Shown here piece after piece: positions 946-32,000 of a stretch of 32,000 nucleotides of DNA. How positions within the stretch are numbered: the first letter of the stretch is position 1; each line of letters starts with the position of its first letter. A model generated the notes under the pieces. It was not told where the DNA came from. It did not search any database and saw nothing but the letters and a program-made list of their open reading frames with translations. Made by a program: the position numbers and the translations under genes. Source of the stretch: Breznakia blatticola (GTDB taxonomy: Bacteria; Bacillota_I; Bacilli_A; Erysipelotrichales; Erysipelotrichaceae); the NCBI RefSeq assembly GCF_004365815.1, contig NZ_SODD01000014.1, positions 13,737 through 45,736 of the forward strand, given 5' to 3'.

Positions 946-963
946 TTCACTTACCTCAATTAC

Positions 964-992
964 ATAGTATCATGCATAACTTTTCGTTGCAA
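964..992 (-). promoter_or_regulatory. Sigma-A type promoter for the AlbA_2/HATPase gene
   Basis: Minus strand reads TTGCAA (987-992), a 17 nt spacer ending in TGa, then TACTAT (964-969). The ATG at 945 is about 18 nt downstream of the -10. Confidence 0.5.
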
Positions 993-15216: not shown

Positions 15217-15246
15217 AAAGAAACACAGTTTTACCCATGTTTCTTT
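15217..15246 (-). terminator. Weak hairpin at the end of the SipW/TasA-like operon
   Basis: AAAGAAACA (15217-15225) pairs with TGTTTCTTT (15238-15246): perfect 9 bp, AT-rich, overlapping the TAA stop. Only a short T-run follows on the minus strand. Confidence 0.3.
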
Positions 15247-16189: not shown

Positions 16190-16766
16190 TGCTTACCTCT
16201 CTTTCCGCTTTCGCTTGCTTTAATCTTTCTATTTCTAAACGGACCGTTTCAAGATCCTCTTGTTTGATTTGCTTTTCTTTTGCATATGACATTTCTAATA
16301 ATAGAAATGCTAACAACAATACGCTTATGGTTCCAAGTGGATGTTTCATCACATTGATAATCGCTCCAACAAAAGGAATACTACAAATGACTTTCCCTTT
16401 GATGTTTTCCTTTGTGATTGGATCATCAACCATTCCATTTGCATCACCTTTGGTGTAAATATTATCTTCATCTATACTTACAACACGATGAACGATAAGT
16501 TCATACCCATCTTGATACACCACAATATCATCAATAGATACATTTGTTGTATCTTTCACGATAATAAGATCATCTTTTTCTAATGCAGGTTGCATACTTC
16601 CCGATAACACAACGGATGCACCATAACCAAATGGAGTTGGTAGTGCATTACCTACGATGGACTGTGCATTATATAAATACACAGTAAATCCAATATAGAT
16701 TCCAACAATGATAAGAATTGGTGTACGCAAAATGCGTGATTTTCTACTCTTCATCATGTTCTCCAT
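16173..16766 (-). CDS. sipW: Signal peptidase I, archaeal/ER type (SipW-like), copy 1
   Basis: 197 aa. N-terminal TM, catalytic Ser box VVLSGSMQP, His box LIVHRVV, TKGDAN motif, second TM, then a charged coiled-coil tail. The start could be 16766, 16757 or 16754 (GGAG precedes the ATGATG pair). Overlaps the 3' end of the upstream gene. Confidence 0.85.
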   Translation of the reverse strand: MENMMKSRKSRILRTPILIIVGIYIGFTVYLYNAQSIVGNALPTPFGYGASVVLSGSMQPALEKDDLIIVKDTTNVSIDDIVVYQDGYELIVHRVVSIDEDNIYTKGDANGMVDDPITKENIKGKVICSIPFVGAIINVMKHPLGTISVLLLAFLLLEMSYAKEKQIKQEDLETVRLEIERLKQAKAEREVSSELDT

Positions 16767-17628
16767 CTTTCTTCTTTTTCCAAATTATGCATGCTACAAG
16801 TACAACAGCAATTCCACCTAACATAAGATAATACATTACATTTGTTGTATCTCCGGTGTTTGGATTACGTAGTCCACCATCCGCAATTTGTGAATTTTCA
16901 TCACTCCATGCATAGGTACGAATCACGACAGTTACAGTTAAGTCTTCATCGACTGCACGATTGCCTAAATAGGTATCAAAGTCATCATCACCTTGTTCAA
17001 ATGGCCATTCCCAAAACAATGTGTAATACGCATAGTTTTTAGCATACAGACTAGCTTCATCACGAATAAAACTGCCCTTTGCTAGACGCTCCATTCCTTG
17101 ATCACTACCTAAAAGATAGTCACCAGTATAACTTTTCATCGCAATGTTTACAGGGAAATCAACATCACTTGGACTTGTTAGTACTTCACAGGTCATTTGA
17201 TATTTTACAGTAGTTGATCCATTATTTTTGATATGAAAGGTGTACTCATTTTCTGTTCCTGGAGCGATTACTTCTTCTCCATTTGAACTTACTACGCTTA
17301 CTTTTCCATCATCATTTGTATATGTAAGCTTAAAAATTTCAACATCTGTTTCTGTTGACCAAGTTTGTTTATTATCAAAGGTTTCAATCCCCTCTGTATT
17401 TTGTTGTGTTCCTACCCCATTGGCATTGTTTGTAATTGCAATAGATGAACTACCGCCTTCATCGTTTGTTTCATCAGATTCCACTGCAACTGATGGAAAC
17501 AATGAAATTGCTTCTTTTTCAATCTGTGATATGTAAATAAGATGATTTCCTATCACACTTACTGTAATTGCAACACAGATGAAAAGCACACATACCAATA
17601 GCCAAATCTTTCCTTTTCTATTTTGCAT
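16744..17628 (-). CDS. Diverged TasA-like paralog with C-terminal sorting-like anchor (294 aa)
   Basis: N-terminal TM (IWLLVCVLFICVAITVSVIG), acidic linker and TasA-like core motifs (VIAPGTENEYTFHIKNNGSTTVKY; YYTLFWEWPFEQGDDDFDTYLGN). C-terminus NPNTGDTT, then a TM (LMLGGIAVVLVACIIW), then KKKK. AAAGGAG RBS. Confidence 0.7.
   Translation of the reverse strand: MQNRKGKIWLLVCVLFICVAITVSVIGNHLIYISQIEKEAISLFPSVAVESDETNDEGGSSSIAITNNANGVGTQQNTEGIETFDNKQTWSTETDVEIFKLTYTNDDGKVSVVSSNGEEVIAPGTENEYTFHIKNNGSTTVKYQMTCEVLTSPSDVDFPVNIAMKSYTGDYLLGSDQGMERLAKGSFIRDEASLYAKNYAYYTLFWEWPFEQGDDDFDTYLGNRAVDEDLTVTVVIRTYAWSDENSQIADGGLRNPNTGDTTNVMYYLMLGGIAVVLVACIIWKKKKDGEHDEE
16747..16866 (-). other. C-terminal sorting-like signal of the 294-aa protein
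   Basis: NPNTGDTTNVMYY-LMLGGIAVVLVACIIW-KKKKDGEHDEE. Confidence 0.5.
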
Positions 17629-17684
17629 AGTTCTCCTTTTAAAGAAGCAACAAACAATCTGTCAATTGTTTGCTATTTCTTTAA

Positions 17685-17716
17685 ATATAGCCCTTAGCGC
17701 ATACCAAGGGCTATAT
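17685..17716 (-). terminator. Hairpin 16 nt after the 361-aa gene stop; candidate partial terminator or attenuator
   Basis: Minus strand ATATAGCCCTT-ggtatgcgct-AAGGGCTATAT, a perfect 11 bp stem. Only TT follows, then AAAG. A second imperfect hairpin lies at 17646-17674, just before the next RBS. Confidence 0.4.
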
Positions 17717-17731
17717 AACATAAACTATAAA

Positions 17732-18817
17732 CTAGTCTCTTTGAGTTATAGTAAGGTTTAAATTAAACATCACTTTAAATGATGATGGACCAAATGGTTT
17801 CCCTAAATATGCACCGTCTAATCCTTTTTCTTTCATAAACTCACCTTGCATCCCATTAAATCCTGTTGAAGCAAAGCAATTTACATCAAAATCAGTATCT
17901 CCTCTATTTGCTGCCATTACATTTCCAATCATGGTATCTACTTTATCGTATTTTCCGTTTGTAGTTGAATCGTCATGTGTAAATGCCCACTCCCATGTGA
18001 TTTTAGGCAATGCAGCTTGGCTTAGGTCAGTACCTGATTCAAAATTTACACCTGAAGTCTTATAAACAGCGTTAAACTTATTTGCAATCAGTTCTAGCGT
18101 ATCTTGTTGGTATGCACTCGCCCCTGTAGGGTTTGTAAATCCATTCCAATCTGTTCCATCTTGGTTCGTCATTTTAAATGTAATCGGATAATAGTCTGGA
18201 CCTGCGTTTCCATCTGATTTTTCCAAGTTTGCAATTTCTACAGCTTCATAAAAAACATCACCATCTTTTGTGTATCCATTTGTTTTCGCATAGTAACTAT
18301 CGCTATCTCTAAGAACATATAAATCATATTCGCCTGAATACGCTTTATACTCCGCTTCTGTAGATATACTTGTTTTTTTCATTTGAAAATACTTATCACC
18401 TCGAATACGGAAATTTTGTGTTTTCAATTCTCCAGTAATAACACCATCAACCTCTGGTGTTCCTGTTAAATTCAAATTAAACGTATCATTTTTTGTTCCT
18501 GGTGCCAGTACATTATCTCTAGTCTTATCAGAGTTAGCTAATGCTGATACACTAATCGAGTTATCAGTTACATCAGTTGTAATTGTATTTCCATTCGCTG
18601 CATCTTTGTAGTCTGTTCCAAAGATATTATTGTCAGCGGTCATCACAACACCCCATTTAGCAACACGTGCAGTATTTTCACCAACTGCTGTTGTAGTGTA
18701 TTTTGCGAAAGTTCCACTTACAATCGCTGTTGTTAATAATGTAACAACTAATAATCCTGATGCAAGACGCATCGATTTATTCTTTTTTAATTCTTTTTTC
18801 GTTTTCAAATTGTTCAT
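17732..18817 (-). CDS. TasA/camelysin-like secreted protein with SipW-dependent-type signal peptide (paralog A, 361 aa)
   Basis: N-terminus KKNKSMRLASGLLVVTLLTTAIVSGTFA-KYTTTAVGENTARVAKWG resembles the GGGTFAYF/GGGTWAAF SipW-cognate signals of camelysin and TasA. VLAPGTKNDTFNLNLTG resembles the TasA KPGD...NxG core. Sits directly downstream of sipW-2. Confidence 0.75.
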   Translation of the reverse strand: MNNLKTKKELKKNKSMRLASGLLVVTLLTTAIVSGTFAKYTTTAVGENTARVAKWGVVMTADNNIFGTDYKDAANGNTITTDVTDNSISVSALANSDKTRDNVLAPGTKNDTFNLNLTGTPEVDGVITGELKTQNFRIRGDKYFQMKKTSISTEAEYKAYSGEYDLYVLRDSDSYYAKTNGYTKDGDVFYEAVEIANLEKSDGNAGPDYYPITFKMTNQDGTDWNGFTNPTGASAYQQDTLELIANKFNAVYKTSGVNFESGTDLSQAALPKITWEWAFTHDDSTTNGKYDKVDTMIGNVMAANRGDTDFDVNCFASTGFNGMQGEFMKEKGLDGAYLGKPFGPSSFKVMFNLNLTITQRD

Positions 18818-18914
18818 CTAATCTTTTTTCCTCCTATTAAACATACATCCTTTACTCTTTAAACTATATATTTCACTGTTTTGTTGTGGAGCAAAACAGG
18901 TGAAACCACACTAA

Positions 18915-19562
18915 TTACTTATCTTCTTTAGATTGTTCTGCTTTTAGCTTTTCTAGTTCTGCTAAAAGTGCTTCAGTTTCATTAGCACTTGCTTTTTCAA
19001 AACCTTTTCTTCTAAAGATGTCATATCCGACAAGTAAGAATAATGGAACAACAACACAGACAATCAAACCTTGTGTTGTTTGCATAAACATTGCAATGTT
19101 CCCTGCACCACCAATACGGAAATCATAAATTCCAACTAAGTTTTGTTCTGGTATTGGATCTGCATCATTTGTATTATTGGCATCCCCTTTTGTGATAAAT
19201 GCCAATTTCCCTTCTACATCTTGTATTTCAACTACACGGTGAGTTACAACTGCATTTTTTTCGCTTTTTGGATCAAAGTAAGTAATAATATCTCCTACTT
19301 TAACTTTCTTCGCATCTGTCACATTACAGATAATTAAATCACCTGATTGAATCTCAGGGTACATCGAATCCGTTAACACAATCATTGGTGCTATTCCACC
19401 AATACTTGGTACTTTTTCCGGTTCTGTATAACTCTTAACTATTAATGTCACATTGATAATCAATATCGGAATTAAGATGATACTCATAATAATTCCTACA
19501 ATCGTCAACACTTTGTGCTTTGTCGATGTATTTTTCATTTTCTTTGTTTTCAATTCGCTCAT
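18915..19562 (-). CDS. sipW: Signal peptidase I, archaeal/ER type (SipW-like), copy 2
   Basis: 215 aa. N-terminal TM, Ser box MIVLTDSMYP, His box VVTHRVV, TKGDANN motif, second TM (LIVCVVVPLFLLVGY), then tail ETEALLAELEKLKAEQSKEDK. Confidence 0.85.
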   Translation of the reverse strand: MSELKTKKMKNTSTKHKVLTIVGIIMSIILIPILIINVTLIVKSYTEPEKVPSIGGIAPMIVLTDSMYPEIQSGDLIICNVTDAKKVKVGDIITYFDPKSEKNAVVTHRVVEIQDVEGKLAFITKGDANNTNDADPIPEQNLVGIYDFRIGGAGNIAMFMQTTQGLIVCVVVPLFLLVGYDIFRRKGFEKASANETEALLAELEKLKAEQSKEDK

Positions 19563-19770
19563 TTATTTTCCCTTCATTTCATTATTCATTCTCGAATAAG
19601 TTTATTAAACATAATTAATTAACGAAAATCATATAGAATAACTATATCGATTCTCTCGTTTTTACTCAACGTTATTTCTGTGTCTTTTAACGCATTTTTT
19701 GAACAATCCATACAATTAATTCATAATAAATATTTTTTAATTCATAGCCCCTTACCTAAGTTATGTTTAC

Positions 19771-19800
19771 ATTTTAAAATTATTATATATAAACTGTCAA
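19771..19800 (-). promoter_or_regulatory. Sigma-A type promoter for the sipW-2 operon, leaving a leader of about 200 nt
   Basis: Minus strand TTGACA (19795-19800), 18 nt spacer, TAAAAT (19771-19776). Confidence 0.45.
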
Positions 19801-19856
19801 CGATAACGAATGATGAATTCTAGATTCATTTTTTCCAACTTATTTTATCGATTTTC

Positions 19857-19910
19857 GCAAAAAAAGACTTACGTATAGACGTTGATTCATTGCGTCTATT
19901 CGCAAGTCTT
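19857..19910 (-). terminator. Rho-independent terminator after the 1362-aa adhesin gene
   Basis: Minus strand AAGACTTGCGAATAGACG-caatgaatcaa-CGTCTATACGTAAGTCTT (18 bp stem, 2 mismatches), followed by TTTTTTT. It begins 6 nt after the stop codon. Confidence 0.75.
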
Positions 19911-19915
19911 ATAAA

Positions 19916-22900
19916 CTAATTTTCAGTCTTATAAAGTGATCGCACCTTATTCCGTATTAATAACGCAACACTAACTGCTGCCATAAATAGCGTAAGCAAT
20001 AATTTCGATGCACTACTTGTATCACCAGTTTCAATTGATGGTTTTGAATTTGGTGTTTGATTTGAATTAGCACTTCCATTTGGTTTTGAATCTTTTGATG
20101 GTAAATTAGCACTTGGTTTATCTGGTGTATTACCACCTTCATTTGGCAGACTATTACAAACATCTATTTTACGATATACCGCTGTGAATGTTGTGCTTTC
20201 TTCCATATTCATTTTTGCGATATCTTCGCTTGAATATACACTTGACGATCCATTCATCGACCATCCAATATGTTCATAGTTTTCATTACTCTTTACTGAT
20301 GGAACATAGGACACTTGATTTCCAAATACTACTTGTTCGTTCATCGTATTTGTTGTATTACCAGAAGCATCTACTAAGATTCCTTGTTCTCCTTGTTCAA
20401 ACACGACAAGCAGTTCATCTGCACTCCATGTTGCTGTATAAACAGTTGTACTACCTGCTTTTCCAAAGACTTTTGTAGGTTCTACATCCCATCCTGTAAA
20501 TGCGAATCCTTTTTTCGTTACTTCTGGAACCTCATAAGCTTTTCCAGGTTTTCCTTCTACGTAACTTCCAAATGCTCCTTGTGAATCAACTCCACCATCG
20601 TACATAAAGATTACCGTTGCATTGTCTACTTCTTCATACTGCGCAACAAATTCAGAATTTTTTGTAATCTTCATTTTTGCAATATCTTCACTAGCATATA
20701 ACGTACTTGAACCATTTAAAGACCATCCTTTAAATGTATGTCCCTCGTATACTTTAATCTCCGGCACATATGTTACTGTATCTTGATATTTCACGTCTTC
20801 TGCATATGTATCAATTTTTGCATCGTCCGCATCAAACATATCTCCATATTCACCTGGTAGGAATGTTACTTCAAGAGATGATGTTTCCCAAATTGCTGTA
20901 TAAACACTTGTGCTACCAGCACTGCCAAATACTAATGTAGGCTGTTTATCCCACCCAGCAAACGTATAGCCGTCTTTTATGATTGAAGGTGATATATACG
21001 CTGTTCCTGGTTTCCCAACGATTACACTCATATATTCTAAGTTATCGTCAACTCCACCTTTATAATCAAAGATAACTGTTACTTCGCCAATCTCTTCATA
21101 AATTGCAGTAAATACCACATTACCTGTGACTTTTAGATCGTTAACTTCATCACTTGTGTATAATATTTCACTTCCATCTTTTGACCAACCAACAAACTTG
21201 TATGAAGCATCAGATGTCACTGATGGAACAAAGGTAATTTTTTCTTTGTATACTACCCTTGTTTCCACTGTATCAACAGTATCATTTGCTTCATTTGTTA
21301 GTACACCATGTTCTCCTTTTTCAAAGGTAACTTTGTATGAAATTGGTGTCCACTGTGCATGATAAATACTTATACTATTTGCTTCACCAAACACTAATGT
21401 TGGAGTTTCATTCCATCCATCAAATTCATAACCTGTTCTTGTTGGAACTGGTGTAGCATATGCTGTCCCTGGTTTTCCATTGATTGTCTTCATGAATTTT
21501 GAGTCATCATCTAATCCACCATTGTAGTTAAAGATAACTGTTGCATTATCTATTTCTTTATATACTGCAGTGAATGTCACATCTTCAGTTACGTTGTATT
21601 TCTCAATCGCTTCATTAGAATAGATTTTCCCAGTGCCCGCGTGTTTCCAACCAACAAATTCATAATTTGTATTTGCCGTAACACCTGGCACAAACGTGAC
21701 TGTATCACTAATTTTTACTTTTTCTGATACTGTAGAGGCCGTATCTCCCGTTTTATTGCTGAGTGTACCATTATCTCCTTGTTTGAATGTTACGTTATAT
21801 GATAATCGTTTCCATTGTGCTGTGTAAATTGTTGTACTTCCTGCATCACCAAATTTCTTAGTTGGCTCTACATTCCAACCGATGAATTCATAACCTTCCT
21901 TCGTAACTGAAGGAACTGTATAGGTTTCATTTGGTTCACCACTTACAATTGTAATCTTCTCATCATTATCATCAATTCCACCATCATAGTTAAATATGAC
22001 TGTCGCCGTTCCGTTTTTCTCCCAAACAGCTGTATATGTTTTATTACCAACAATTGGTTGTTTGTCCATTGCTTTTGGGTAAATAATTGCTCCATATGCT
22101 TTATCTTCCCATCCCACTAAACGATAACCTTCTCTTATTACTTGTTTGTAGTCTGGAGTTGGATTCATTGCAGTTTCATAATCACCTAAAGTTTCATAGT
22201 CTGTCACTTGTGTCCATTTTACATCTGCTTCAGAACCTGCAATATTTCCACCATTCAAATCATATGTAATATCAGCAACTACTACTTGATCGTATACCAT
22301 TAAATCAAAATGTGTATTGGTAGTATTTCCTACTGTATTGCCACCTATACTTCCCGTACCTGCATTATAGAATACTTCTTTTGCACCACTTCCATCATAA
22401 TACGTTCCACGTATAGCTACTCGATAAAATTCGTCTCCAGAACATGTTTGTGTCACTTGTCTAAAACTTCTTAGATCCTGCTCACTACGTATTTTAATTT
22501 CGTTTATTTTTGTTAGTTTACTAAACCCATCAGTATAATCATAGTTACGAGTACCATTCGTTAAGAAACACGAACCACCCATTGCAACTGTTTGAATATC
22601 TATCCAGTAATATTCAAACTCAACATATCCACCTGTTAAACTTCCAGACTCACTCAAAAGAAGTGGATGATAAACGTCGACTCCAACTTTCTGATTTCCA
22701 TTTTGTAATTGAACATTAAGATCATATGTAATATTTCCTGTTCCTATTGCGTCAACAATTTGACCATTTACCGTAGGCTTAATTACAGGTTCGATTGGAT
22801 ACACTCCAGGCGTTAGAGCTACAACTCCAGCTGCATCAAGATATGTCCCAGATAATATATCTGTCGTTTCTACTTTTTTTGCTGTGTCCTTATATAACCA

Positions 22901-24004
22901 CTTCGCTTGATATCCAGCTGATAGTGTTACACCATCAAGCGAAGGTAATGTATACGCTGTGTTGACTTCCCAAAAAGAAGTTGTTGTATTTTTCGTATAC
23001 TGAAGTGATTGATTATATAGTTTCTTTTCGCTACTTAGTACTGTTCCATTTGTATCTTGTGCTTGAAGTTCTACTTCATATGTAAATTGCTTCTTTAAAT
23101 TTGCATCAGTTCCTGAAAGCGCATTTACTCTATCAAACTCAGACTTATTTGAAAAAACAACCATGCTGTTTGCAACCGCAGAAGAACTCGTACCGCTTAT
23201 ATTAAAAGATGTAGATGTATAGGAAGCCCCAACTGTTTCACTTATGATTTGAACACTTTTGAATGGACTAATCGTATTTATTTTAAACGCTTCATTTCCC
23301 ACAGAAGTAACTGTACTTGGAATCGCAAAAAACACTGAACTTCCATCTTGTATCATCTGAAAAGAAAATGCGTTATTACCGATTGTCACCAATTTAGACG
23401 GTAAAGTAATGGCTGAAGTTGTGGTTTTTCCGTTGACCTTTATATATTCTACTGCACCAATGGAACCTAATGCTAACTCGCCAATAAACGTAATATTATC
23501 TGACAGAGTAATTTGCTTCAAACCAGTTTGATGCAAGGCTTTTGTTTGTAATGTTGTCACGCTATCCGACATCTCTAAAGATGTCATTTGATACTGTGCA
23601 TTAAACGCGCTTGAGTTGATTGTAGTTAATTTTGTTGGTTGTGTCATATCTGTCTTTGTAATTGTATATGGCATGTATGAGCCAGTCCAACCTGGAACGC
23701 TTCCATTTCTTGCAAATGCAAACGAACCTATAGACACTACTTTCGAACCATTAATTTCATCTGGAATTGTTAGTTCCACATCTTTTAGGGTAGATTCACT
23801 ACCAGCAACCGAAATGTACCAACTTTTGTTCAAAGAGGTAATCTCTATCCCTCCTGATACACTTCTATAATTAAACACACTGCTAGCACTATAGTCTGAT
23901 GTTTTAATCACATCAGCACTTGCTCGTATTGATTGCTGTTCAACAGTGAAAATCGCTGCAAATGCAATAACCACTGCAAGTGCAACACTTATAATCTTTT
24001 TCAT
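19916..24004 (-). CDS. Giant surface adhesin: Sec signal peptide, BspA-type leucine-rich repeats, Listeria-Bacteroides (InlB B-repeat/Flg_new) repeats, C-terminal sorting-like anchor (1362 aa)
   Basis: MKKIISVALAVVIAFAAIFTVEQQSIRASA-DV signal. LRR_5-like segments (LTIPDEINGSKVVSIGSFAFA, ITLSDNITFIGELALGS, ITLPSKLVTIGNNAFS). Repeats carry the ...GG...P..TKEGYEFIGW signature. C-terminus SIETGDTSSASK, then a TM, then RNKVR. Confidence 0.85.
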   Translation of the reverse strand: MKKIISVALAVVIAFAAIFTVEQQSIRASADVIKTSDYSASSVFNYRSVSGGIEITSLNKSWYISVAGSESTLKDVELTIPDEINGSKVVSIGSFAFARNGSVPGWTGSYMPYTITKTDMTQPTKLTTINSSAFNAQYQMTSLEMSDSVTTLQTKALHQTGLKQITLSDNITFIGELALGSIGAVEYIKVNGKTTTSAITLPSKLVTIGNNAFSFQMIQDGSSVFFAIPSTVTSVGNEAFKINTISPFKSVQIISETVGASYTSTSFNISGTSSSAVANSMVVFSNKSEFDRVNALSGTDANLKKQFTYEVELQAQDTNGTVLSSEKKLYNQSLQYTKNTTTSFWEVNTAYTLPSLDGVTLSAGYQAKWLYKDTAKKVETTDILSGTYLDAAGVVALTPGVYPIEPVIKPTVNGQIVDAIGTGNITYDLNVQLQNGNQKVGVDVYHPLLLSESGSLTGGYVEFEYYWIDIQTVAMGGSCFLTNGTRNYDYTDGFSKLTKINEIKIRSEQDLRSFRQVTQTCSGDEFYRVAIRGTYYDGSGAKEVFYNAGTGSIGGNTVGNTTNTHFDLMVYDQVVVADITYDLNGGNIAGSEADVKWTQVTDYETLGDYETAMNPTPDYKQVIREGYRLVGWEDKAYGAIIYPKAMDKQPIVGNKTYTAVWEKNGTATVIFNYDGGIDDNDEKITIVSGEPNETYTVPSVTKEGYEFIGWNVEPTKKFGDAGSTTIYTAQWKRLSYNVTFKQGDNGTLSNKTGDTASTVSEKVKISDTVTFVPGVTANTNYEFVGWKHAGTGKIYSNEAIEKYNVTEDVTFTAVYKEIDNATVIFNYNGGLDDDSKFMKTINGKPGTAYATPVPTRTGYEFDGWNETPTLVFGEANSISIYHAQWTPISYKVTFEKGEHGVLTNEANDTVDTVETRVVYKEKITFVPSVTSDASYKFVGWSKDGSEILYTSDEVNDLKVTGNVVFTAIYEEIGEVTVIFDYKGGVDDNLEYMSVIVGKPGTAYISPSIIKDGYTFAGWDKQPTLVFGSAGSTSVYTAIWETSSLEVTFLPGEYGDMFDADDAKIDTYAEDVKYQDTVTYVPEIKVYEGHTFKGWSLNGSSTLYASEDIAKMKITKNSEFVAQYEEVDNATVIFMYDGGVDSQGAFGSYVEGKPGKAYEVPEVTKKGFAFTGWDVEPTKVFGKAGSTTVYTATWSADELLVVFEQGEQGILVDASGNTTNTMNEQVVFGNQVSYVPSVKSNENYEHIGWSMNGSSSVYSSEDIAKMNMEESTTFTAVYRKIDVCNSLPNEGGNTPDKPSANLPSKDSKPNGSANSNQTPNSKPSIETGDTSSASKLLLTLFMAAVSVALLIRNKVRSLYKTEN
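19919..20032 (-). other. C-terminal sorting-like signal of the 1362-aa protein
   Basis: (SI)ETGDTSSASK-LLLTLFMAAVSVALLI-RNKVRSLYKTEN. Confidence 0.5.
20162..22006 (-). repeat. Four in-frame tandem repeats of about 154 aa (about 462 bp), each a pair of Listeria-Bacteroides repeat domains
   Basis: Units start ATVIFNYDGG (aa 667), ATVIFNYNGG (821), VTVIFDYKGG (975) and ATVIFMYDGG (1129). Each ends ...FTAVYKEID / FTAIYEEIG / FVAQYEEVD / FTAVYRKID. A fifth, degenerate single repeat precedes them (ADITYDLNGG..., aa 577-665). Confidence 0.85.
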
Positions 24005-24213
24005 TTTATGTTCCTCTCTTCATTTCTATCTCTATCTCTATGTCTAGAAATCTAGACTCCAACATCATAAGTGTATAAAGATAATCGCTGACAAACAAGT
24101 TTTTTCTTGTTTGTTTTATGTGTTTTATGAACCATAACTTCTACTTAATTGAAAATGCGAGGTATACACTACTGTATACACCCCACATTTCATTATCTTT
24201 ATTCACTCTATTG

Positions 24214-27200
24214 TTATTTTTTAGAACGTTTTATTTTACTCCATCCAAATCCACCTAGAGCAAGTACTGCTACTAGTCCAAGCAACAAATACACGTTTAC
24301 ATCAGTAGTATCTCCTGAATTCACTGTGTTGCTAGTTGCAACATTAGGTTTACTGTCTTCTGGTAGTTTCTCATATTGTGCAATAAATGTTACATCTTCT
24401 GTGATCAACATTTGTTTAACTTTCTCACTACTGTATACATCTTCAGTTCCTTTAAGCAACCAACCTACAAACTTGTATCTTTCGTTTGGCTTTACAACTG
24501 GAACATATGAGACAGATGTGTTGAATAACACACGCTCATCAATTGTTACCGCTTCCTTATTATCATCGCCAACCAAAATACCACTGTCACCTTTTTCAAA
24601 TACAACCTGGTAATCATCACGCTCGCACTTCCATGCACCAGCAAAAATATAGTTACTGTTTTCAAGCGTTGTACTAGTTGTACTCCACCCTTGGAATATC
24701 CAACGGTCTTCTCCGATTACAATCGGATCACTACTAAATTCTGTAGCGTGTACTGTTGTTCCTGTTCTAAATGCACCTAATGCTTCTGGCGCCATATTCT
24801 TAATACTTTCAGGAAGTTCTTTTCCTTTTGTAACACTTACAAATTCATGATATGCATAGTATCTATTTAATTTCGGATGATTTTTTGCAGCTATTTTATC
24901 TCCAACAACACTAGCAGTTACTGGAAGATTACCCGTTGCATCTTCTTTTCCATCCCTTAGTTTTAGTTGTACTGTAACTGAATTTACTGTACCACTTTTA
25001 GCTTCAACGATATCCCAAATCAGTTTATTTCCTTCAATTCTTGCTGAACTATTTTCAGTAAGAACATCTATATCAGCATCTGTACCACTCAAGAAGTCAA
25101 AGTATTTTGATAAATCCACTTCTACTTGAGATGTAATCGGAAGTTCATCTTCATTAATATACTGAATCGCTTCTGATAGAAGTTCTGTAAATTCGTTGTC
25201 ATCTTTTGCAAGATAGAATGTTTCGTTATCAAATGAAATATCTTTCAAGTTCTTTTCGTATTCTGCTTCAATTGAAGCAATACCAAGAGGATATACCCTG
25301 ACACCTGCATCACGTAAAATTGCAGCTTCAGCCACACCATCACATTCTTCTTTTGGAAGTTTTGTTCCATCTTCTAACTTAACATTTGGAATTCCATCAG
25401 TTATGAAAATAATAACTGCTTCTCTACTTGTATCTTCTCTATTATCAATCAATTCTTTTGCCGCAAGCAAACCTTCCGAGTAATTTGTATAATTACTTTC
25501 AATCAACGTTCTTTTTTCTGCTCTTAACGCATCTCCATCTTCAAGGAATCCATCTGTACTCCATAATGAATCTGTTCCAAAAGCTGTTAAAGCGATTCTA
25601 TTGTCGTATCCTTCACCATTTTTTTCCAAAATCATATCATATGCATCAGATAAAATATCTTCCATAATTAATGATCTAGGATACTTATCATCTGTACCCG
25701 AAATGTTTTTTGGAACTAGCATAGAATCACTATAATCGAGCACGAATACATAATCTAGTCTCGTATTTAATTTAGAACGTGCAAAATCCACACGAAGTTC
25801 TGCTTCATTTAAAGCATCATTTGTCCACTTCGCAGAAGACTGCAGCATTACATCTCCACTATAGTTTTGCGCAGTACTTTCATATCCACTAACCTCAGGA
25901 TATCCAACCGGAGGTGTATTAACATCTGGAAGGCTTCCTGTTAATGTCATTAATTTTTTATGAATAACATTAGATATACCCAAACATCCCTCATACGCAC
26001 GTCCATGGAAAGTTTTTATTGTTTCTGGAATAACTAGTTCTCCAGTGAAATCACAAAATGCAAAAATATATATTCCTGAAATATGTTCAACATTTTCACC
26101 GAAGGACAAAGTTCCAGTAAACCCGCTTTCATAAAAGATGGATCTTTCTGTCAAGTCACAATCTACAAATAAGTTTCGTGGTTTAACTGTCGCATTTTTA
26201 CCAAACTGATGAAACGCTGCTTCTCCGACATACTCTATACTAGAAGGTAATGCCAAATCCCCAGTAAACTTTGTCATTGCAAATGCATAATGCCCAATTG
26301 TTTTTACTGCATTTCCAAGCGTTAATGTTCCTGTAAATCCACTTTCTCGAAACGCGGCAATTTCATCAAGATTACAGTTTACTGTTAAATTGTTTAGACT
26401 TCCAACTGTTCCAAATTTTTCAAATGCAAACTCTCCAACATATGTCAAAGTCTCAGGTAAAACTAAGTCTCCACTAAATGACGTTGCCCCTCTGAACGAT
26501 TGCTTTGCAAGAGTCTTTACAGAGTTACCAATTGTTAGTGTTCCTGTAAATCCACTTTCTTGAAACACGGCAGTTTCATCAAGATTACAGTTTACTGTTA
26601 AATTGTTTGGTCTTCCAACTGTTCCAAATTGATAGAACGCCCATGATTTTACTAAACTAAGAGTTGAAGGAAGCACTAAATCTCCTGTAAACCCTGTTGC
26701 CTGATAGAAACTTTGCGTTTCAATAGTTTTTACACTTTCACCAATCGTTAACGCACCTGTAAATCCACTACGATAAAAAACAGCTGGTTTAGACAAATCA
26801 CAATTTACTGTTAAGTTTCCTGGTTTTCCATTAACTCCAAACTCTCTAAACGCGTACGTTCCAACACCTTTAACTGTGGAAGGTAGTACTAAATCTCCTG
26901 TAGCGTTTTTCACTTGGCGAAAAGCCTCTGTTCCAATATACGCTACGTTTGGCCCAAAGGTCACTTTTCCATTGATATTTGCACTTTGAAAGACATTTGA
27001 CTTTGGAAGTGAACAATTTATATCAACATTTTGCACCTTCCCATAATACCCAAAATAATAAAATGCGTACTTATTGACTAAAGTTACTGTACTAGGAAGA
27101 ACAAAATCTCCTGTAAACCCTGTATAGCTAAAACTATACTCACCAATATCCTTTACCTCAGGACCAATAGTTAATGAACCTGTAAAAACGCTGCCATAAA

Positions 27201-27999
27201 ATGCTTGCTCAGATATCGTTTCACTATTTACTGTCACGTTCCCATTAATCGGCTTTTTATAACTACCAAAACAATAAAATGCATAGTCTCCAACTTTCTT
27301 CACTGTACTAGGAATTACGATGTCTCCTGTAAATCCATTTACAAGAGTAAATGCATAGTCTTCAATTTCAGTAATTGTTGAAGGAAATACAAGGCTTCCA
27401 GTAAAAGTCCTTCCAGTATCTTTATAGAAGGCCATCGCACCAATTTTAGTTACTGTATATTCTTCACCATCTGTTGTTGCTAAAACTTTTGATGGAATCA
27501 CCAAATCTCCAGCATATGCAGCATCTTTTGTTCCCGTTACTGTTGCTGTCTTAGTACCATCTGTTGAAAATGTATATGTTAATACACTATCAGCTTCTGC
27601 TACAACCCCAGTTCTTGGTTGAACTTTTCTAGCCACATCACCCGTGTTGACTTGTTTAACTTTTGCACCTTCTTTTGATTCTTCTACATTGTTTTCACTT
27701 TGTGATGAATCTTGTGCATCCGTCTTTTCTTCATATTCTTTTATCTCATCTTCTAGTGCTGGAATTTCTATTGGTTCATCAACTATTTCTTCCTCCACTA
27801 TAACAATCTCTTCTGCTGTTTCCGATTCACCAAGAGTACTTCCATTTTCTGGAGTACCTTCTTCTTGTGGATTCTCTTCAACCACTTCCTCATTCGCTTT
27901 ACCCATTACTGAATAGTTACTTACTTGCCCTATTACCACAAACATAATAATTGCTACCGTAAATAGCTTGCGAATAAAACTACTTTGCGTTCGTTTCAT
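24214..27999 (-). CDS. Giant surface adhesin: signal peptide, acidic linker, BspA-type LRR array, vWFA domain, Ig-like region, one Listeria-Bacteroides repeat, C-terminal sorting-like anchor (1261 aa)
   Basis: N-terminal KLFTVAIIMFVVIGQV signal or anchor. Glu-rich region aa 36-115. About seven 70-aa LRR units. MIDAS DYSDS. C-terminus NTVNSGDTTDVNVY, then a TM, then KIKRSKK. AAAGGAAAG RBS. Confidence 0.85.
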   Translation of the reverse strand: MKRTQSSFIRKLFTVAIIMFVVIGQVSNYSVMGKANEEVVEENPQEEGTPENGSTLGESETAEEIVIVEEEIVDEPIEIPALEDEIKEYEEKTDAQDSSQSENNVEESKEGAKVKQVNTGDVARKVQPRTGVVAEADSVLTYTFSTDGTKTATVTGTKDAAYAGDLVIPSKVLATTDGEEYTVTKIGAMAFYKDTGRTFTGSLVFPSTITEIEDYAFTLVNGFTGDIVIPSTVKKVGDYAFYCFGSYKKPINGNVTVNSETISEQAFYGSVFTGSLTIGPEVKDIGEYSFSYTGFTGDFVLPSTVTLVNKYAFYYFGYYGKVQNVDINCSLPKSNVFQSANINGKVTFGPNVAYIGTEAFRQVKNATGDLVLPSTVKGVGTYAFREFGVNGKPGNLTVNCDLSKPAVFYRSGFTGALTIGESVKTIETQSFYQATGFTGDLVLPSTLSLVKSWAFYQFGTVGRPNNLTVNCNLDETAVFQESGFTGTLTIGNSVKTLAKQSFRGATSFSGDLVLPETLTYVGEFAFEKFGTVGSLNNLTVNCNLDEIAAFRESGFTGTLTLGNAVKTIGHYAFAMTKFTGDLALPSSIEYVGEAAFHQFGKNATVKPRNLFVDCDLTERSIFYESGFTGTLSFGENVEHISGIYIFAFCDFTGELVIPETIKTFHGRAYEGCLGISNVIHKKLMTLTGSLPDVNTPPVGYPEVSGYESTAQNYSGDVMLQSSAKWTNDALNEAELRVDFARSKLNTRLDYVFVLDYSDSMLVPKNISGTDDKYPRSLIMEDILSDAYDMILEKNGEGYDNRIALTAFGTDSLWSTDGFLEDGDALRAEKRTLIESNYTNYSEGLLAAKELIDNREDTSREAVIIFITDGIPNVKLEDGTKLPKEECDGVAEAAILRDAGVRVYPLGIASIEAEYEKNLKDISFDNETFYLAKDDNEFTELLSEAIQYINEDELPITSQVEVDLSKYFDFLSGTDADIDVLTENSSARIEGNKLIWDIVEAKSGTVNSVTVQLKLRDGKEDATGNLPVTASVVGDKIAAKNHPKLNRYYAYHEFVSVTKGKELPESIKNMAPEALGAFRTGTTVHATEFSSDPIVIGEDRWIFQGWSTTSTTLENSNYIFAGAWKCERDDYQVVFEKGDSGILVGDDNKEAVTIDERVLFNTSVSYVPVVKPNERYKFVGWLLKGTEDVYSSEKVKQMLITEDVTFIAQYEKLPEDSKPNVATSNTVNSGDTTDVNVYLLLGLVAVLALGGFGWSKIKRSKK
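24217..24324 (-). other. C-terminal sorting-like signal of the 1261-aa protein
   Basis: VNSGDTTDVNVY-LLLGLVAVLALGGFGW-SKIKRSKK. Confidence 0.5.
25255..25758 (-). other. von Willebrand factor A domain with intact MIDAS, inside the 1261-aa protein
   Basis: YVFVLDYSDSM contains DxSxS (GAT TAT AGT GAT TCT = rc of 25723-25737). Downstream are RIALTAFGTDS and AVIIFITDGIPN, in the usual vWFA order. Confidence 0.7.
25960..27522 (-). repeat. Array of about seven 70-aa BspA-type LRR units (coding repeat)
   Basis: Recurring FTGDLVLPSTxxxVxxxAFxxFG...NLTVNCxLxxxxVFxxSGFTGxLTIGxSVKTIxxxxF between aa 160 and 680. Confidence 0.75.
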
Positions 28000-28277
28000 T
28001 TCTTCTTTCCTTTCCTAGATAATACATCGAACTATCATCTACATACACACACTTTTCGATATGCGTTCTACTTGCCAACAATAGAATTTTTTACACATAC
28101 AGTAAACAAATTCTCTCATTTGCAACCCCACTATATAAATCATAAATATCCTCGCCAATGCACTCAATTGTATTTCAGTGAGAATAATGATGATTTGTTG
28201 CGTAATGTTCGGATTATCAACTCTTGCTGACACGCACTTCACAAAAACTTTATAATCTCCATATTTGTATTACAAAT

Positions 28278-28310
28278 CCAATAAAAGGTTGACACTAGTG
28301 CCAACCTTTT
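28278..28310 (-). terminator. Rho-independent terminator after the 1151-aa adhesin gene
   Basis: Minus strand AAAAGGTTG-gcactagtgt-CAACCTTTT, a perfect 9 bp stem (28283-28310), followed by ATTGGATTTG. Confidence 0.65.
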
Positions 28311-28370
28311 GGGTATTGGTGAATATCACCATTCATCATACATAGTTAGTATAGGATCTATGTTAAATGA

Positions 28371-31300
28371 CTATTTGTTTGTACGTCTTCTTCTTGTGAA
28401 GATTGCAATACCAGCAAGAGAGATTAATAGTAATGCCATCATTTCATTAATTGTTGATGATAAATTAACTCCTGTTGCAGGATCACCTGATGTATCTTTG
28501 TCTTTATCTTTACCTGGTGTTGATGGATTTGCTTTTACTTCTTCTTTGATTGTTACTTTCACTTGTCCAACAACAACTTCAAGATCTTCTTCACTAACAA
28601 GCATTCTTGCTGCTTTAGCAGAAGTAGGACTTGTTAATACTAAGTCAAGAATTACATCTTCTCCAGCTTTTGCATTTTTTAAAGCATCCATGTTTTTGAT
28701 GTATACAGGTAAATCTGTAATTCCATCTAAATAATCATCTTTCCAAGCTTTCGCTCCTGCTTTATTAATAATAAATGCTTCAACTGTTCCATCTTCAATG
28801 TGTGAAGTTAATTCACTCATTTCTAATGTAATGTCATTTCCTTCAATATAGTAAAGTGCTTTTCTCACGATATTCACTTGTACTGTTTTAGTTGTAACAT
28901 TATCAACTGAATCAGTTACTGTAATTGTTACAAGGAATGGTTTAATTTCTTTTAAATCTTCAGGGTTGAAGTCAACTTTAGCAAAGTCAGAAGTAACAGT
29001 TGGTGCTAATAATGAATTATCACTTACTACTAATCCGATTTGTTCGAAGAATTCTGCTTCAGTTACTTCGCTTTCTGCACGATATGAAATAGTTACTAAG
29101 TCACTATCAACAACTGGTGCAGTTGTATCAATTACATTTACTGTAATATCAATTGATGTTGTATTTCCTGTTGGATCAGTTACATATAATGTAATTACCG
29201 TTCCATCTTTGATTACACTTGTATCTAAGTCAGCAAAGTTTGTAGCTTTTACGTTTACATCTGCTAAGACATCATTATCTTCAGCTTTTGTAACATTTAC
29301 TGCTTTTAAGAAATCTTCATAAGTTACTTCTGTATTCACTTCAAATTCAACAGTTTCATTTTCAACTTCAAACGTTGGATCTGTTGTATCTGTTACTGTT
29401 ACAGTAACTGAAAGTGATGTAGAGTTTCCTGTTTTGTCAGTTACAGTTAATGTAATCACTGTTCCTGTTTCATCCACTACATCTAAATCAATATCTTTGA
29501 AATCAACTGATGTGATTTCTAGGTCATCAGTAGATGCTGGGTCATTATCTGACTTTGTGATTGTTCCAAGTTGGTCAAGTACATCTTGAAGTGTTGAATC
29601 ACTTGATAATTCTAATCTTGCTTCATCATTTTCAATTGTAAATTCTGGATCAGTTGTATCAACAACTTTTACAGTTACCTCTACAGTTGCTGTTAGTCCA
29701 GCTTTATCTTCAACATATAATGTTACTTTTGTACCATCTTCATTAACTACACCTTGTTTTAAATCTTTAAAGTCAGCAGATTTAACTTCAAGTGGTTTAG
29801 AACCTTCATCATTATCATTAGATACTGCATTTAATGCTGTAGTTAAATCAGCAAGAGTAATTGTATCTCCTACTTCTAATACATATTCTTTAGTATCTAC
29901 TGTTAATGTAGGTACAGTTGTATCTTCAACTTTCACTTTAATTGTTACTGATTTTTTGTTACCTGTTGGGTCTGTTACAGTTAACGTAACATCTTTTCCT
30001 ACTTTATCAACACGAGTTTGATCAACTTTAGCAAAATCAGAGTAATCAATTGTTTTCACCATCGCTGGATCATTATCTTCGATTGTAATTTTTCCAAGTA
30101 GTGATTCTAATTCAGCAGCTGTAGTTACAACACCCGCTTCAATTGTAATATCTTTTTTCTCAACATCGAATGTTGGTTTTGTAGTATCAGATACCGTTAA
30201 TTCAACTGGAAGTGATGTAAAGTTTCCAGATTTATCAGTCACAGTTACATAAATAGTTGTAACACTTGGTTCATCTAAATTAATACTTCCAAATTCAGCA
30301 GATGTAATATCCATGCTATTTGTAGATGCTAGATCATTATCTGATTTTGTAATTGTTCCAAGTTGATCAATTACATCTTGAAGTGTTGAGTTCTTTCCTA
30401 ATTCCAATCTTGCTTTATTTTTCTCGATTGTGAATTTTGGATCAGTTGTATCAACAACTTTCACAACTACATCAGTAGTTGCTTTGTAACCTGAATTGTC
30501 AGCTACATAAAGAATAACAGTTGTACCGTTTTTGTTAACTTCATCTTGTTTTAGTTTTGTAAAGTTGTCTGATTTAATTTCTAGTGTAGATCCTTTATCA
30601 TTGTCACTTGCTGTAACACCAGATGCACTAATTAAATCAGCTAAACCAATAGTTTTTCCAACTTCCAATACGTAGTCATCTTTAGTTTTAGATAATGTAG
30701 GTGCTTGTGTATCTCCTACCTTAACTTTTACAGTTACGCTAGATGGATTGTTTGAAGCATCTTTTACAGTTAAGATAATATCTTTTCCTGTTTTATCTAC
30801 TTTTGTTTGATCTAGACTTGCAAATGCAGTTGACTCAATTTGTCCAGCATATGCTTTATCGTTATCTGTGTTTGTAATAGTACCTAAGTATTTAGTAACA
30901 AACGCATCTAAATCAATGTTTTCACTAGCTTCAATTGTTACTGTTTTGTTTTCTACATCAAATGTAGGAGCAGTTGTATCTTCAACTTTCACAAGTACTT
31001 CTTGTTTAGTTTCTAATCCTGCTGCATCTGTAACAAAGAATACTACTTTTTTACCTACTGTATCAACTTCATCTTGTTTAATATCACCAAAGTTTTTCGC
31101 TTGAATTGTCATAGGTAATGAGTTTGGATTATTGTCATCAATCACAACATCACTTAACAACGCTGCAACATCCGCAACTGTATACTTATCAGCTGCTCCT
31201 AATTCAAGGATTAACTCTTTTGTTGATGTTGTAAATGTAGGGACTGTTTTATCTTCAACAGTAAATGCAATTTGTTTCTCTACACTATTACCATCACTAT

Positions 31301-31826: not shown

Positions 31827-32000
31827 TACACCAACACTTAATTTCTTAGATTCTTCTTTTGTAGGATCAACATTAAGAATTAATCCTGTATTTGCTCCTG
31901 TATTATGTAGAATGGCATTCTTAATGCAACTGTCATAGTCATCATATTTGTTAGTGTTTTTGTTATATTATTATGAATTCTCATCTTGATTGTTACGAAT

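What the first reader, a model, noticed from the sequence alone, without database searches (positions are those of the whole stretch)
16747..28493. Four surface proteins share a non-canonical [T/S]-G-D sorting-like C-terminus, with no sortase in 32 kb
The C-termini read NPNTGDTT... (294 aa, nt 16747-16866), SIETGDTS... (1362 aa, nt 19919-20032), TVNSGDTT... (1261 aa, nt 24217-24324) and DTSGDPATG... (1151 aa, nt 28374-28493). Each is followed after 5-15 residues by a 13-17 residue hydrophobic helix and a Lys/Arg tail. The tripartite layout is that of sortase substrates, but the pentapeptide is not LPXTG. The positions before T/S-G vary (PN, IE, VN, DT), while G-D-[T/P]-[T/S/A] after the putative scissile bond is conserved. 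That is the opposite of the usual conservation pattern. This could be the recognition signal of a specialised sortase class encoded elsewhere, or of a different processing or anchoring enzyme.
Basis: partly seen in the sequence, partly recalled or inferred. Interest (0 to 1): 0.65.

Follow-up and report, generated by a model that had tools for sequence, protein, structure and literature searches.

The report
Ordinary sortase anchors, class-B type
The four C-terminal tails are most likely ordinary sortase cell-wall anchoring signals of the "PxTG-D" kind handled by class B sortases in clostridia and relatives, so the conserved Gly-Asp is a known feature, not a new sorting system.

Summary
The window comes from a Breznakia species (Erysipelotrichaceae). 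All four tails are at the stated coordinates, and no sortase lies in the 32 kb. The reading "non-canonical signal, inverted conservation" does not hold.

- The 294-aa protein belongs to a large Clostridia family. 171 of about 198 members end in x-P-x-T-G-D plus a hydrophobic helix plus Lys/Arg. T, G and D are invariant in the alignment, and position P3 is Pro in 89% and Val in 7%.
- In 16 of 74 related loci a class B sortase gene lies 1.3-8.9 kb away on the same strand.
- Published work shows that Bacillus anthracis SrtB needs the Asp after Gly, that Clostridium difficile SrtB cleaves SPKTG|D and PPKTG|D, and that a Streptococcus pyogenes class B sortase accepts Val or Pro at P3.
- The window's NPNTGD, SIETGD and TVNSGD (P3 = P, I, V) fit this pattern.
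- The fourth tail most likely uses DPATG|V, five residues downstream of the reported TSGD. Its ORF is a fragment of a 2297-aa protein.

The sortase is presumably elsewhere in the genome, which I could not reach. Whether the Pro-less tails are cleaved is unproven. Side finding: the 294-aa protein sits in a cluster that resembles the Clostridium perfringens sipW-bsa operon.

The parts
16744..17628 (-). 294-aa protein with an N-terminal membrane or signal helix, a beta-sandwich core and a C-terminal sorting signal. It is a cell-wall-anchored paralogue of the neighbouring secreted proteins.
16849..16866 (-). NPNTGD sorting motif of the 294-aa protein (putative cleavage between T and G).
   Evidence: TIGR01167 scores 17.6 and 22.3 bits against a 15.9 cut-off. 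T258, G259 and D260 are invariant in alignment A1.
19916..24004 (-). 1362-aa surface protein with a signal peptide, BspA-type LRR and Listeria-Bacteroides repeats, and a sorting-signal-like tail.
20021..20038 (-). SIETGD motif (P3 = Ile), followed by TSSASK, a 16-aa hydrophobic helix and RNKVR.
   Evidence: No LPXTG-anchor HMM hit.
24214..27999 (-). 1261-aa surface protein with a signal peptide, LRR_5 repeats, VWA and SHIRT domains, and a sorting-signal tail.
   Evidence: The only architectural homologue, P0122, ends in VVKTGDTTT plus helix.
24310..24327 (-). TVNSGD motif (P3 = Val, P1 = Ser).
   Evidence: The isolated tail scores 18.6 bits on TIGR01167 (cut-off 15.9), with the Gly of SGD on the Gly of LPXTG.
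28371..31826 (-). 1151-aa ORF without a signal peptide. It is the C-terminal half of a 2297-aa LapB-repeat/Big_2/SdrD_B surface protein that is intact in another strain.
28467..28484 (-). DPATGV, the more likely sortase pentapeptide of the fourth protein.
   Evidence: HMM alignment (15.3 bits against a 15.9 cut-off). Homologues carry LPSTGV, TPNTGV and TNTSD at the aligned position.
28482..28493 (-). It is probably incidental.
16173..16766 (-). SipW/archaeal-type signal peptidase I, copy 1.
   Evidence: TIGR02228 scores 72.9 bits against a 51.85 cut-off.
18915..19562 (-). SipW/archaeal-type signal peptidase I, copy 2.
   Evidence: TIGR02228 scores 112.7 bits.
17732..18817 (-). 361-aa secreted protein, a paralogue of the 314-aa and (weakly) of the 294-aa proteins. 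Candidate matrix or fibre subunit.
   Evidence: No Pfam, NCBIfam or PDB hit.
15245..16189 (-). 314-aa secreted paralogue of the 361-aa protein.
   Evidence: E = 1e-15.

Best explanation
The tails are sortase-dependent cell-wall sorting signals of the x-[P/V/I]-x-[T/S]-G-D type. This type is the common form in Clostridia and Erysipelotrichia and is associated with class B sortases.

Proposed mechanism (inferred, not shown here):
1. After Sec export, the hydrophobic helix and the Lys/Arg tail hold the precursor in the membrane.
2. A membrane sortase, encoded elsewhere in the Breznakia genome, cleaves between T/S and G.
3. The sortase transfers the protein to peptidoglycan.

The conserved Asp after Gly is part of what the enzyme reads, as shown for B. 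anthracis SrtB. Three window proteins carry this signal (NPNTGD, SIETGD, TVNSGD). The fourth carries an xPxTG-V signal (DPATGV).

Shown here: the sequence anatomy, the family-wide conservation, and the genomic linkage of the 294-aa family to class B sortase genes in other genomes. Inferred: cleavage, anchoring, and the class and presence of the Breznakia sortase.
For: - **HMM scores.** The NPNTGD tail passes the curated LPXTG-anchor model. The TVNSGD tail passes it when scanned alone, with its Gly aligned to the LPXTG Gly. The DPATG tail is 0.6 bit below the cut-off.
- **Family conservation.** 171 of about 198 relatives of the 294-aa protein carry [TS]GD before a helix and basic tail. P3 is Pro in 153, Val in 12 and Ile in 1. 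P1 is Thr in 167 and Ser in 4. T, G and D are invariant in A1.
- **Linkage to class B sortase.** 16 of 74 related loci have a class B sortase gene on the same strand, 1.3-8.9 kb from the anchored gene (8 of the 30 loci with at least 8 kb on both sides). The nine candidates scanned against NCBIfam match TIGR03064 at E = 2e-33 to 1e-70, and the rest match the class B profile.
- **Class specificity.** The only other sortases in 95 loci are two class C enzymes in unrelated pilus clusters. Their substrates end in LPxTGG, not TGD.
- **Lineage relatives.** Their tails read VVKTGDTTT (P0122) and APDTGD, NPSTGD and APDTSD (L086).
- **Literature.**
  - B. anthracis SrtB requires the P2' Asp of NPKTGD (PMC11987632).
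  - C. difficile SrtB, its only sortase and the housekeeping one, cleaves SPKTG|DN, SPQTG|DV and PPKTG|DS between T and G (PMC4155245, PMC8225981).
  - The class B sortase Spy0129 accepts (E/Q/V)(V/P)PTG (PMC3019223).
- **Chance.** About 3e-6 for [TS]GD in all four tails.
Against: - No sortase gene was found in the window or in the additional strain DNA I could read (L001, L005, L104). The rest of the genome could not be reached.
- The SIETGD tail has no hit to any sorting-signal model.
- No window tail hits the sortase-B target model TIGR03063.
- All 16 sortase-linked loci have Pro at P3. The loci with Val at P3 show no sortase in the flanks available.
- A Pro-less motif (NVQTG) and two SPxTG proteins of C. 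difficile are not processed by SrtB (PMC4155245, PMC5569036). So a motif plus helix plus basic tail does not guarantee anchoring.
Confidence: 0.7

Rival explanations
1. Only the Pro-containing tails (NPNTGD, DPATGV) are true sortase substrates. The Pro-less tails (SIETGD, TVNSGD) are decayed signals that are no longer cleaved, so these two large adhesins stay as C-terminally membrane-anchored proteins.
For: - C. difficile SrtB does not cleave NVQTG in vitro, and CD0183 and CD2768 are not anchored despite SPxTG motifs (PMC4155245, PMC5569036).
- The SIETGD tail has no LPXTG-anchor hit.
- All sortase-linked loci have Pro at P3.
Against: - T/S-G-D-T-[TS] is retained in both tails and in the only architectural homologue, VVKTGDTTT. 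Decay would not be expected to leave this intact.
- Val at P3 recurs in 12 family members whose signals are otherwise intact.
- A class B sortase that accepts Val at P3 is known (PMC3019223).
- The TVNSGD tail passes TIGR01167.
Confidence: 0.2
2. The conserved G-D-T-[TS] is read by a new sortase class or by a non-sortase enzyme, such as an exosortase- or rhombosortase-like protease or the adjacent SipW-type peptidases.
For: - No sortase is in the window.
- Two SipW-type peptidases lie next to the 294-aa gene.
- P3' is Thr in this lineage, against Asp or Asn in most relatives.
Against: - The same TGD signal is linked to ordinary class B sortases in 16 related loci.
- No exosortase-, archaeosortase- or rhombosortase-type enzyme or signal scores above its cut-off.
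- SipW-type enzymes cleave N-terminal signal peptides (established knowledge).
- Sortase genes are commonly unlinked to their substrates.
Confidence: 0.07
3. The shared [TS]GD is a chance or compositional coincidence in Ser/Thr/Asp-rich linkers.
For: - The linkers are low-complexity.
- The TSGD of the fourth protein is probably incidental.
Against: - The probability for all four is about 3e-6.
- T-G-D is invariant across the 294-aa family.
Confidence: 0.02

Closest known systems
Clostridium difficile SrtB and its (S/P)PxTG substrates
   Same: - Tripartite signal with Gly-Asp after the scissile Thr (SPKTGDN, SPQTGDV, PPKTGDS).
- The P4 residue is variable.
- A class B sortase acts as the general anchoring enzyme and is unlinked to most of its substrates (PMC4155245, PMC8225981).
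   Different: - Two window tails lack Pro at P3 (Ile, Val), and one has Ser at P1.
- The comparable C. difficile NVQTG motif was not cleaved in vitro.
- The Breznakia enzyme is unidentified.
Bacillus anthracis SrtB and IsdC (NPKTGD)
   Same: - N-P-x-T-G-D is exactly the pattern of the 294-aa tail.
- The P2' Asp is required for activity (PMC11987632), which explains conservation after the scissile bond.
   Different: - No haem-uptake (Isd) context here.
- The IsdC model scores only 12.4 bits on the tail.
- The substrates are large adhesins and a matrix-cluster protein.
Streptococcus pyogenes class B pilus sortase Spy0129, motif (E/Q/V)(V/P)PTG
   Same: - A class B sortase that accepts Val at P3 (PMC3019223).
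- The related locus L086 has FctA-domain proteins with APDTGD and APDTSD tails flanking the same cluster.
   Different: - That motif has Pro at P2 and no Asp at P2'.
- It polymerises pilins through Lys acceptors. Nothing here shows polymerisation.
Clostridium perfringens sipW-bsaA-bsaB-bsaC operon with adjacent srtB
   Same: - A SipW-type peptidase, paralogous secreted matrix proteins, one paralogue carrying a sortase signal in most strains, a VWA-domain protein, and a class B sortase next to the operon.
- The authors propose that SrtB anchors the BsaB-like protein to peptidoglycan (PMC11580942, PMC7395162).
   Different: - No sequence-level match of the window proteins to TasA/BsaA models or structures.
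- Two peptidase genes here.
- No sortase gene in the Breznakia cluster.
Classical LPXTG / class A sortase signals
   Same: - Overall layout.
- HMM TIGR01167 is passed by two tails and nearly by a third.
   Different: - No Leu at P4.
- Pro is absent in two tails.
- Asp, not a variable residue, follows Gly.

Membership tests
Sortase-dependent cell-wall sorting signal (LPXTG-type; TIGR01167 / PF00746) | N-terminal signal peptide on the precursor | tested here: met
   Read from the sequence only; no predictor was run. The 1362-aa and 1261-aa proteins have typical signal peptides, and the 294-aa protein has an N-terminal hydrophobic helix. The 1151-aa ORF lacks one, but the full 2297-aa allele has it.
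Sortase-dependent cell-wall sorting signal (LPXTG-type; TIGR01167 / PF00746) | Pentapeptide ending in T/S-G, then a short spacer, a hydrophobic stretch of about 16 aa, and a Lys/Arg tail at the extreme C-terminus | tested here: met
   Spacers are 7-9 residues and all helices are 16 aa.
Sortase-dependent cell-wall sorting signal (LPXTG-type; TIGR01167 / PF00746) | Score at or above the curated HMM cut-off (15.9 bits) | tested here: inconclusive
   294-aa: 17.6 bits (full protein) and 22.3 (tail). 1261-aa: 18.6 on the tail only. 1151-aa: 15.3. 1362-aa: no hit. The Pfam Gram_pos_anchor model is below its cut-off for all four.
Sortase-dependent cell-wall sorting signal (LPXTG-type; TIGR01167 / PF00746) | A sortase encoded in the same genome | not testable with these tools
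   None in the window. The rest of the Breznakia genome could not be fetched.
Sortase-dependent cell-wall sorting signal (LPXTG-type; TIGR01167 / PF00746) | Cleavage after Thr/Ser and amide linkage to peptidoglycan | not testable with these tools
   Needs biochemistry.
Class B sortase substrates | Asp (or Ala) at P2', directly after the P1' residue | tested here: met
   Asp in three of the four tails, and in 171 of about 198 family members. The requirement is shown for B. anthracis SrtB (PMC11987632).
Class B sortase substrates | Asn or Ser/Pro at P4 and Pro at P3 (NPxTG, (S/P)PxTG) | tested here: not met
   Met only by NPNTG. SIETG and TVNSG have Ile or Val at P3. Val at P3 is accepted by Spy0129 (PMC3019223).
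Class B sortase substrates | Match to the sortase-B target model TIGR03063 | tested here: not met
   No window tail hits the model. Homologue P0122 scores 15.5 bits against an 18.15 cut-off.
Class B sortase substrates | Genomic association with a class B sortase gene | tested here: inconclusive
   Met for the 294-aa family in 16 of 74 related loci. Not met in the window or in the closest relative's locus L086.
Exosortase / archaeosortase / rhombosortase C-terminal sorting domains (PEP-CTERM and relatives) | Match to a curated CTERM sorting-domain model, and a cognate enzyme nearby | tested here: not met
   Only sub-threshold hits on the fourth tail (PEP_CTERM 12.6 against 16; PEFG 12.6 against 25). 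No such enzyme is in the window.
SipW-dependent TasA/BsaA-type matrix operon (context of the 294-aa gene) | SipW-type signal peptidase I in the cluster | tested here: met
   TIGR02228 scores 72.9 and 112.7 bits against a 51.85 cut-off.
SipW-dependent TasA/BsaA-type matrix operon (context of the 294-aa gene) | Homology of the secreted subunits to TasA or BsaA | tested here: not met
   No Pfam, NCBIfam or PDB sequence hit. Foldseek gives only generic beta-sandwich matches with TM-score at most 0.29.

The most novel reading that the evidence does not exclude
Breznakia has a class B sortase subtype whose specificity is dominated by the primed side (G-D-T-[T/S]). It tolerates Pro-less pentapeptides with Ile or Val at P3 and Ser at P1, so SIETG|DTS and TVNS|GDTT are genuine cleavage sites.
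Probability: 0.15. Interest if true: 0.5.

Novelty: new member of a known kind. Interest (0 to 1): 0.2.

Why it matters
It matters little beyond annotation. Pattern searches for LPXTG, and even the curated HMM, miss some of these tails. Surface-protein inventories of Erysipelotrichia and gut Clostridia would therefore under-count anchored adhesins unless x[PVI]x[TS]GD is allowed.

If the Pro-less tails are truly cleaved, the cognate class B sortase would have a recognition rule weighted to the primed side. That would interest people working on sortase-mediated ligation.

The side observation is that a widespread cluster of a SipW peptidase, paralogous secreted proteins and one anchored paralogue is often linked to srtB. 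It supports the published but speculative idea that such fibres are tethered to the wall by a sortase-anchored subunit.

Tried and rejected
**Attempts to reach the rest of the genome**
- Walking along the genome with the look-up of encoding contigs. The 1151-aa ORF and the MBL-fold protein are not on record. The DnaB contig is only 10 kb and has no sortase.
- The genome-contig scan with the 294-aa family did not return the Breznakia genome itself; the best hit was 39% identical.
- The metagenome scan with the 1362-aa C-terminus found nothing. The second scan found 15 distant loci, none close.
- A literature search for the assembly accessions, and one for Breznakia plus sortase, found nothing.

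**Searches that did not help**
- The homologue search with the 1261-aa protein was swamped by Bacteroidales LRR proteins. Only P0122 shares the architecture.
- The AlphaFold2 model of the 294-aa protein (pLDDT 71) with Foldseek against the PDB gave only generic beta-sandwich hits, TM-score at most 0.29.
- PDB sequence searches returned nothing useful: no hit for the 361-aa protein and one non-significant hit (E = 0.23) for the A1 profile.
- NCBIfam found no SipW-type signal in the 361-aa and 314-aa proteins.
- Rfam and tRNA scans of the window found nothing.

**Ideas rejected**
- The 214-aa multi-pass membrane protein (14345-14989) as an exosortase-like enzyme. It has no family hit except a weak Acyl_transf_3 match, and the gene is not conserved in the relative L086.
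- TSGD as the motif of the fourth protein.

Full report
**Observation**

All genes of the window are on the minus strand.
- 294 aa: ...RNPNTGDTTNVMYY, then a 16-aa helix, then KKKK.
- 1362 aa: ...KPSIETGDTSSASK, helix, RNKVR.
- 1261 aa: ...NTVNSGDTTDVNVY, helix, SKIKRSKK.
- 1151 aa: ...DKDTSGDPATGVNLSSTINE, helix, RRRR.

[TS]GD occurs at 0.0028 per position elsewhere in these four proteins. One occurrence in a 15-aa window has a probability of about 0.04, and all four about 3e-6.

No sortase is present in the window. A class B sortase profile run with --max, and class B and C seed sequences, gave nothing better than E = 0.04 on all six frames. Every ORF was also scanned with Pfam or NCBIfam. 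This includes the partial ORF at the window start, which is a Schlafen AlbA_2 / HATPase_c_4 protein.

One correction applies. The 1151-aa ORF has no signal peptide, and a stop codon lies upstream in frame. In strain GCA_029893755.1 the same DNA (99.5% identical) is the 3' half of a 2297-aa gene with a normal signal peptide. Window bases 31907-32000 do not align with that strain.

**Organism**

DnaB is 100% identical to that of Breznakia sp. PH1-1. The next hits are other Breznakia at 58-65% and then Amedibacillus. Breznakia belongs to the Erysipelotrichaceae.

**What the tails are**

The NPNTGD tail passes NCBI's curated LPXTG-anchor model: 17.6 bits in the whole protein and 22.3 on the tail alone, against a cut-off of 15.9. 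Scanned as isolated tails:
- TVNSGD scores 18.6 bits, with its Gly on the Gly of LPXTG.
- The fourth tail scores 15.3 bits, with P-A-T-G (not TSGD) on PxTG.
- SIETGD has no hit.

The 294-aa protein has 183 database relatives at E <= 1e-3 and 130 loci in species-representative genomes, almost all Clostridia. I examined about 198 distinct family members.
- 171 carry [TS]GD before a hydrophobic helix and a basic tail.
- Among those 171, P3 is Pro in 153, Val in 12 and Ile in 1.
- P1 is Thr in 167 and Ser in 4.
- P3' is Asp, Asn or Thr, and P4' is Ser or Thr.
- In the 24-sequence alignment A1, T258, G259 and D260 are invariant.

So the "conserved after, variable before" impression comes from a sample of four. 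Family-wide, Pro at P3 and T-G-D are conserved together, and Val is the recurrent alternative to Pro. The window's three TGD tails have Pro, Ile and Val at P3.

Lineage relatives behave alike:
- The only architectural homologue of the 1261-aa protein ends in VVKTGDTTT plus helix.
- The closest relative of the cluster (54% identity, L086) has NPSTGD. Two flanking FctA-domain proteins there end in APDTGD and APDTSD.

**Which enzyme**

In 16 of 74 related loci, a gene for a class B sortase lies on the same strand, 1.3-8.9 kb from the anchored-protein gene. Among the 30 loci with at least 8 kb on both sides, 8 have it. The nine candidates scanned against NCBIfam match TIGR03064 at E = 2e-33 to 1e-70, and five of them exceed the equivalog cut-off.

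The only other sortases in all 95 loci are two class C enzymes inside unrelated pilus clusters. Their substrates end in LPxTGG, not TGD. For one or two sortase genes in a genome of about 3 Mb, roughly 1% of loci would have one within 10 kb by chance. That figure is my own estimate.

Published work explains the Asp:
- B. anthracis SrtB needs the P2' Asp of NPKTGD, which is read by a Tyr in the N-terminal helix specific to class B (PMC11987632).
- C. difficile SrtB is that organism's only sortase and acts as the housekeeping one. It cleaves SPKTG|DN, SPQTG|DV and PPKTG|DS between T and G (PMC4155245, PMC8225981).
- The class B pilus sortase Spy0129 accepts (E/Q/V)(V/P)PTG, that is, Val or Pro at P3 (PMC3019223).

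A conserved Gly-Asp and a loose P4/P3 are therefore known properties of class B signals.

**The fourth protein**

I searched the representative library with its last 599 residues. The Gram-positive homologues have these tails:
- LPSTGV (P0383, which has the same overall architecture and a signal peptide)
- TPNTGV
- ATNTSD (P0364, the closest at 44%)
- SVNTHD
- LPGTGD, LPITGE and LPSTGQ

MAFFT puts DPATG-V in the column of LPSTG-V, TPNTG-V and TNTS-D. With DPATG the spacer to the helix is 9 residues, like the other three. With TSGD it is 14. I conclude that the signal is DPATG|V and that TSGD is incidental. I cannot exclude a doubled motif.

**Caveats**

- The Breznakia sortase was not found, because nothing outside the window and a few kb of other strains could be read.
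- All sortase-linked loci have Pro at P3.
- C. difficile SrtB does not cleave the Pro-less NVQTG motif, and two SPxTG proteins are not anchored in vivo (PMC4155245, PMC5569036). Cleavage of SIETGD and TVNSGD therefore remains an inference. It rests on retention of T/S-G-D-T-[TS] and on the recurrence of Val at P3 in signals that are otherwise intact.

**Context**

The 294-aa gene sits between two SipW/archaeal-type signal peptidase genes (TIGR02228, 72.9 and 112.7 bits) and two secreted paralogues.
- The 314-aa and 361-aa proteins match each other at E = 1e-15.
- The 294-aa and 361-aa proteins match at E = 0.002, sharing APGT.N and WEW.F..D..DT.GN.

The order secreted protein, anchored paralogue, peptidase recurs in the related loci.

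This layout mirrors the C. perfringens sipW-bsaA-bsaB-bsaC operon. There srtB lies next to the operon, most strains have a BsaB-like gene with an LPXTG motif, and BsaC carries a VWA domain. The authors propose that SrtB tethers the fibre through that subunit (PMC11580942, PMC7395162).

I could not show homology to TasA or BsaA. This is therefore a functional analogy, not a family assignment.

**Verdict**

The anatomy is real. The interpretation as a new or inverted signal is not supported. These are sortase sorting signals of the PxTG-D (class B) type, with lineage-specific Pro-less variants and one mis-aligned case. They are a new member of a known kind and of low interest, with a modest chance (about 0.15) that the Pro-less tails reveal a sortase specificity dominated by the primed side.

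Noticed in passing
window 15245-19562 (minus strand): A conserved cluster holds two SipW-type signal peptidase genes, two secreted paralogues (314 and 361 aa) and a sortase-anchored paralogue (294 aa). The family is found in 130 loci of species-representative genomes, often with srtB nearby. The layout parallels the C. perfringens sipW-bsa operon, but no sequence homology to TasA or BsaA was detectable.
   Followed up: partly
window 28371-32000; L005:2736-9629: The 1151-aa ORF is the 3' half of a 2297-aa surface-protein gene that is intact in GCA_029893755.1. Window bases 31907-32000 do not align with that strain, so the gene is truncated or rearranged in the window's strain.
   Followed up: partly
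window 1-983 (minus strand, runs off the start): A partial ORF encodes a Schlafen AlbA_2 / HATPase_c_4 protein. This stretch is absent from GCA_029892945.1, where a SPOUT methyltransferase gene follows the MBL-fold gene instead. This is strain-variable gene content.
   Followed up: partly
L001:20050-20408 (equivalent to just beyond window ~7690): In GCA_029893755.1 the contig ends in an ISL3-family transposase fragment right after the DUF975 gene. The window instead continues into the DUF2232, GdpP, L9 and DnaB genes. This is either an IS insertion or an assembly break in that strain.
   Followed up: no
window 13546-14181 (minus strand): A chloramphenicol acetyltransferase-family gene (Pfam CAT, E = 1e-29) lies between pth and the surface-protein cluster.
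   Followed up: no
window 14345-14989 (minus strand): A 214-aa multi-pass membrane protein has no family assignment apart from a weak Acyl_transf_3 hit. It lies directly beside the cluster and is replaced by a different small gene in the relative L086.
   Followed up: partly
L086:5136-7775 and L086:13264-15897: In the closest relative of the cluster, the flanking surface proteins carry FctA (pilin-type) domains. Their tails are APDTGD and APDTSD, so Ser can replace Gly at P1' in this lineage. P0364 (TNTSD) and P0386 (VNTHD) point the same way.
   Followed up: partly
window 24214-27999: The 1261-aa protein combines BspA-type LRRs with VWA and SHIRT domains. A VWA-domain protein (BsaC) is also part of the C. 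perfringens bsa operon. This may be a coincidence.
   Followed up: no
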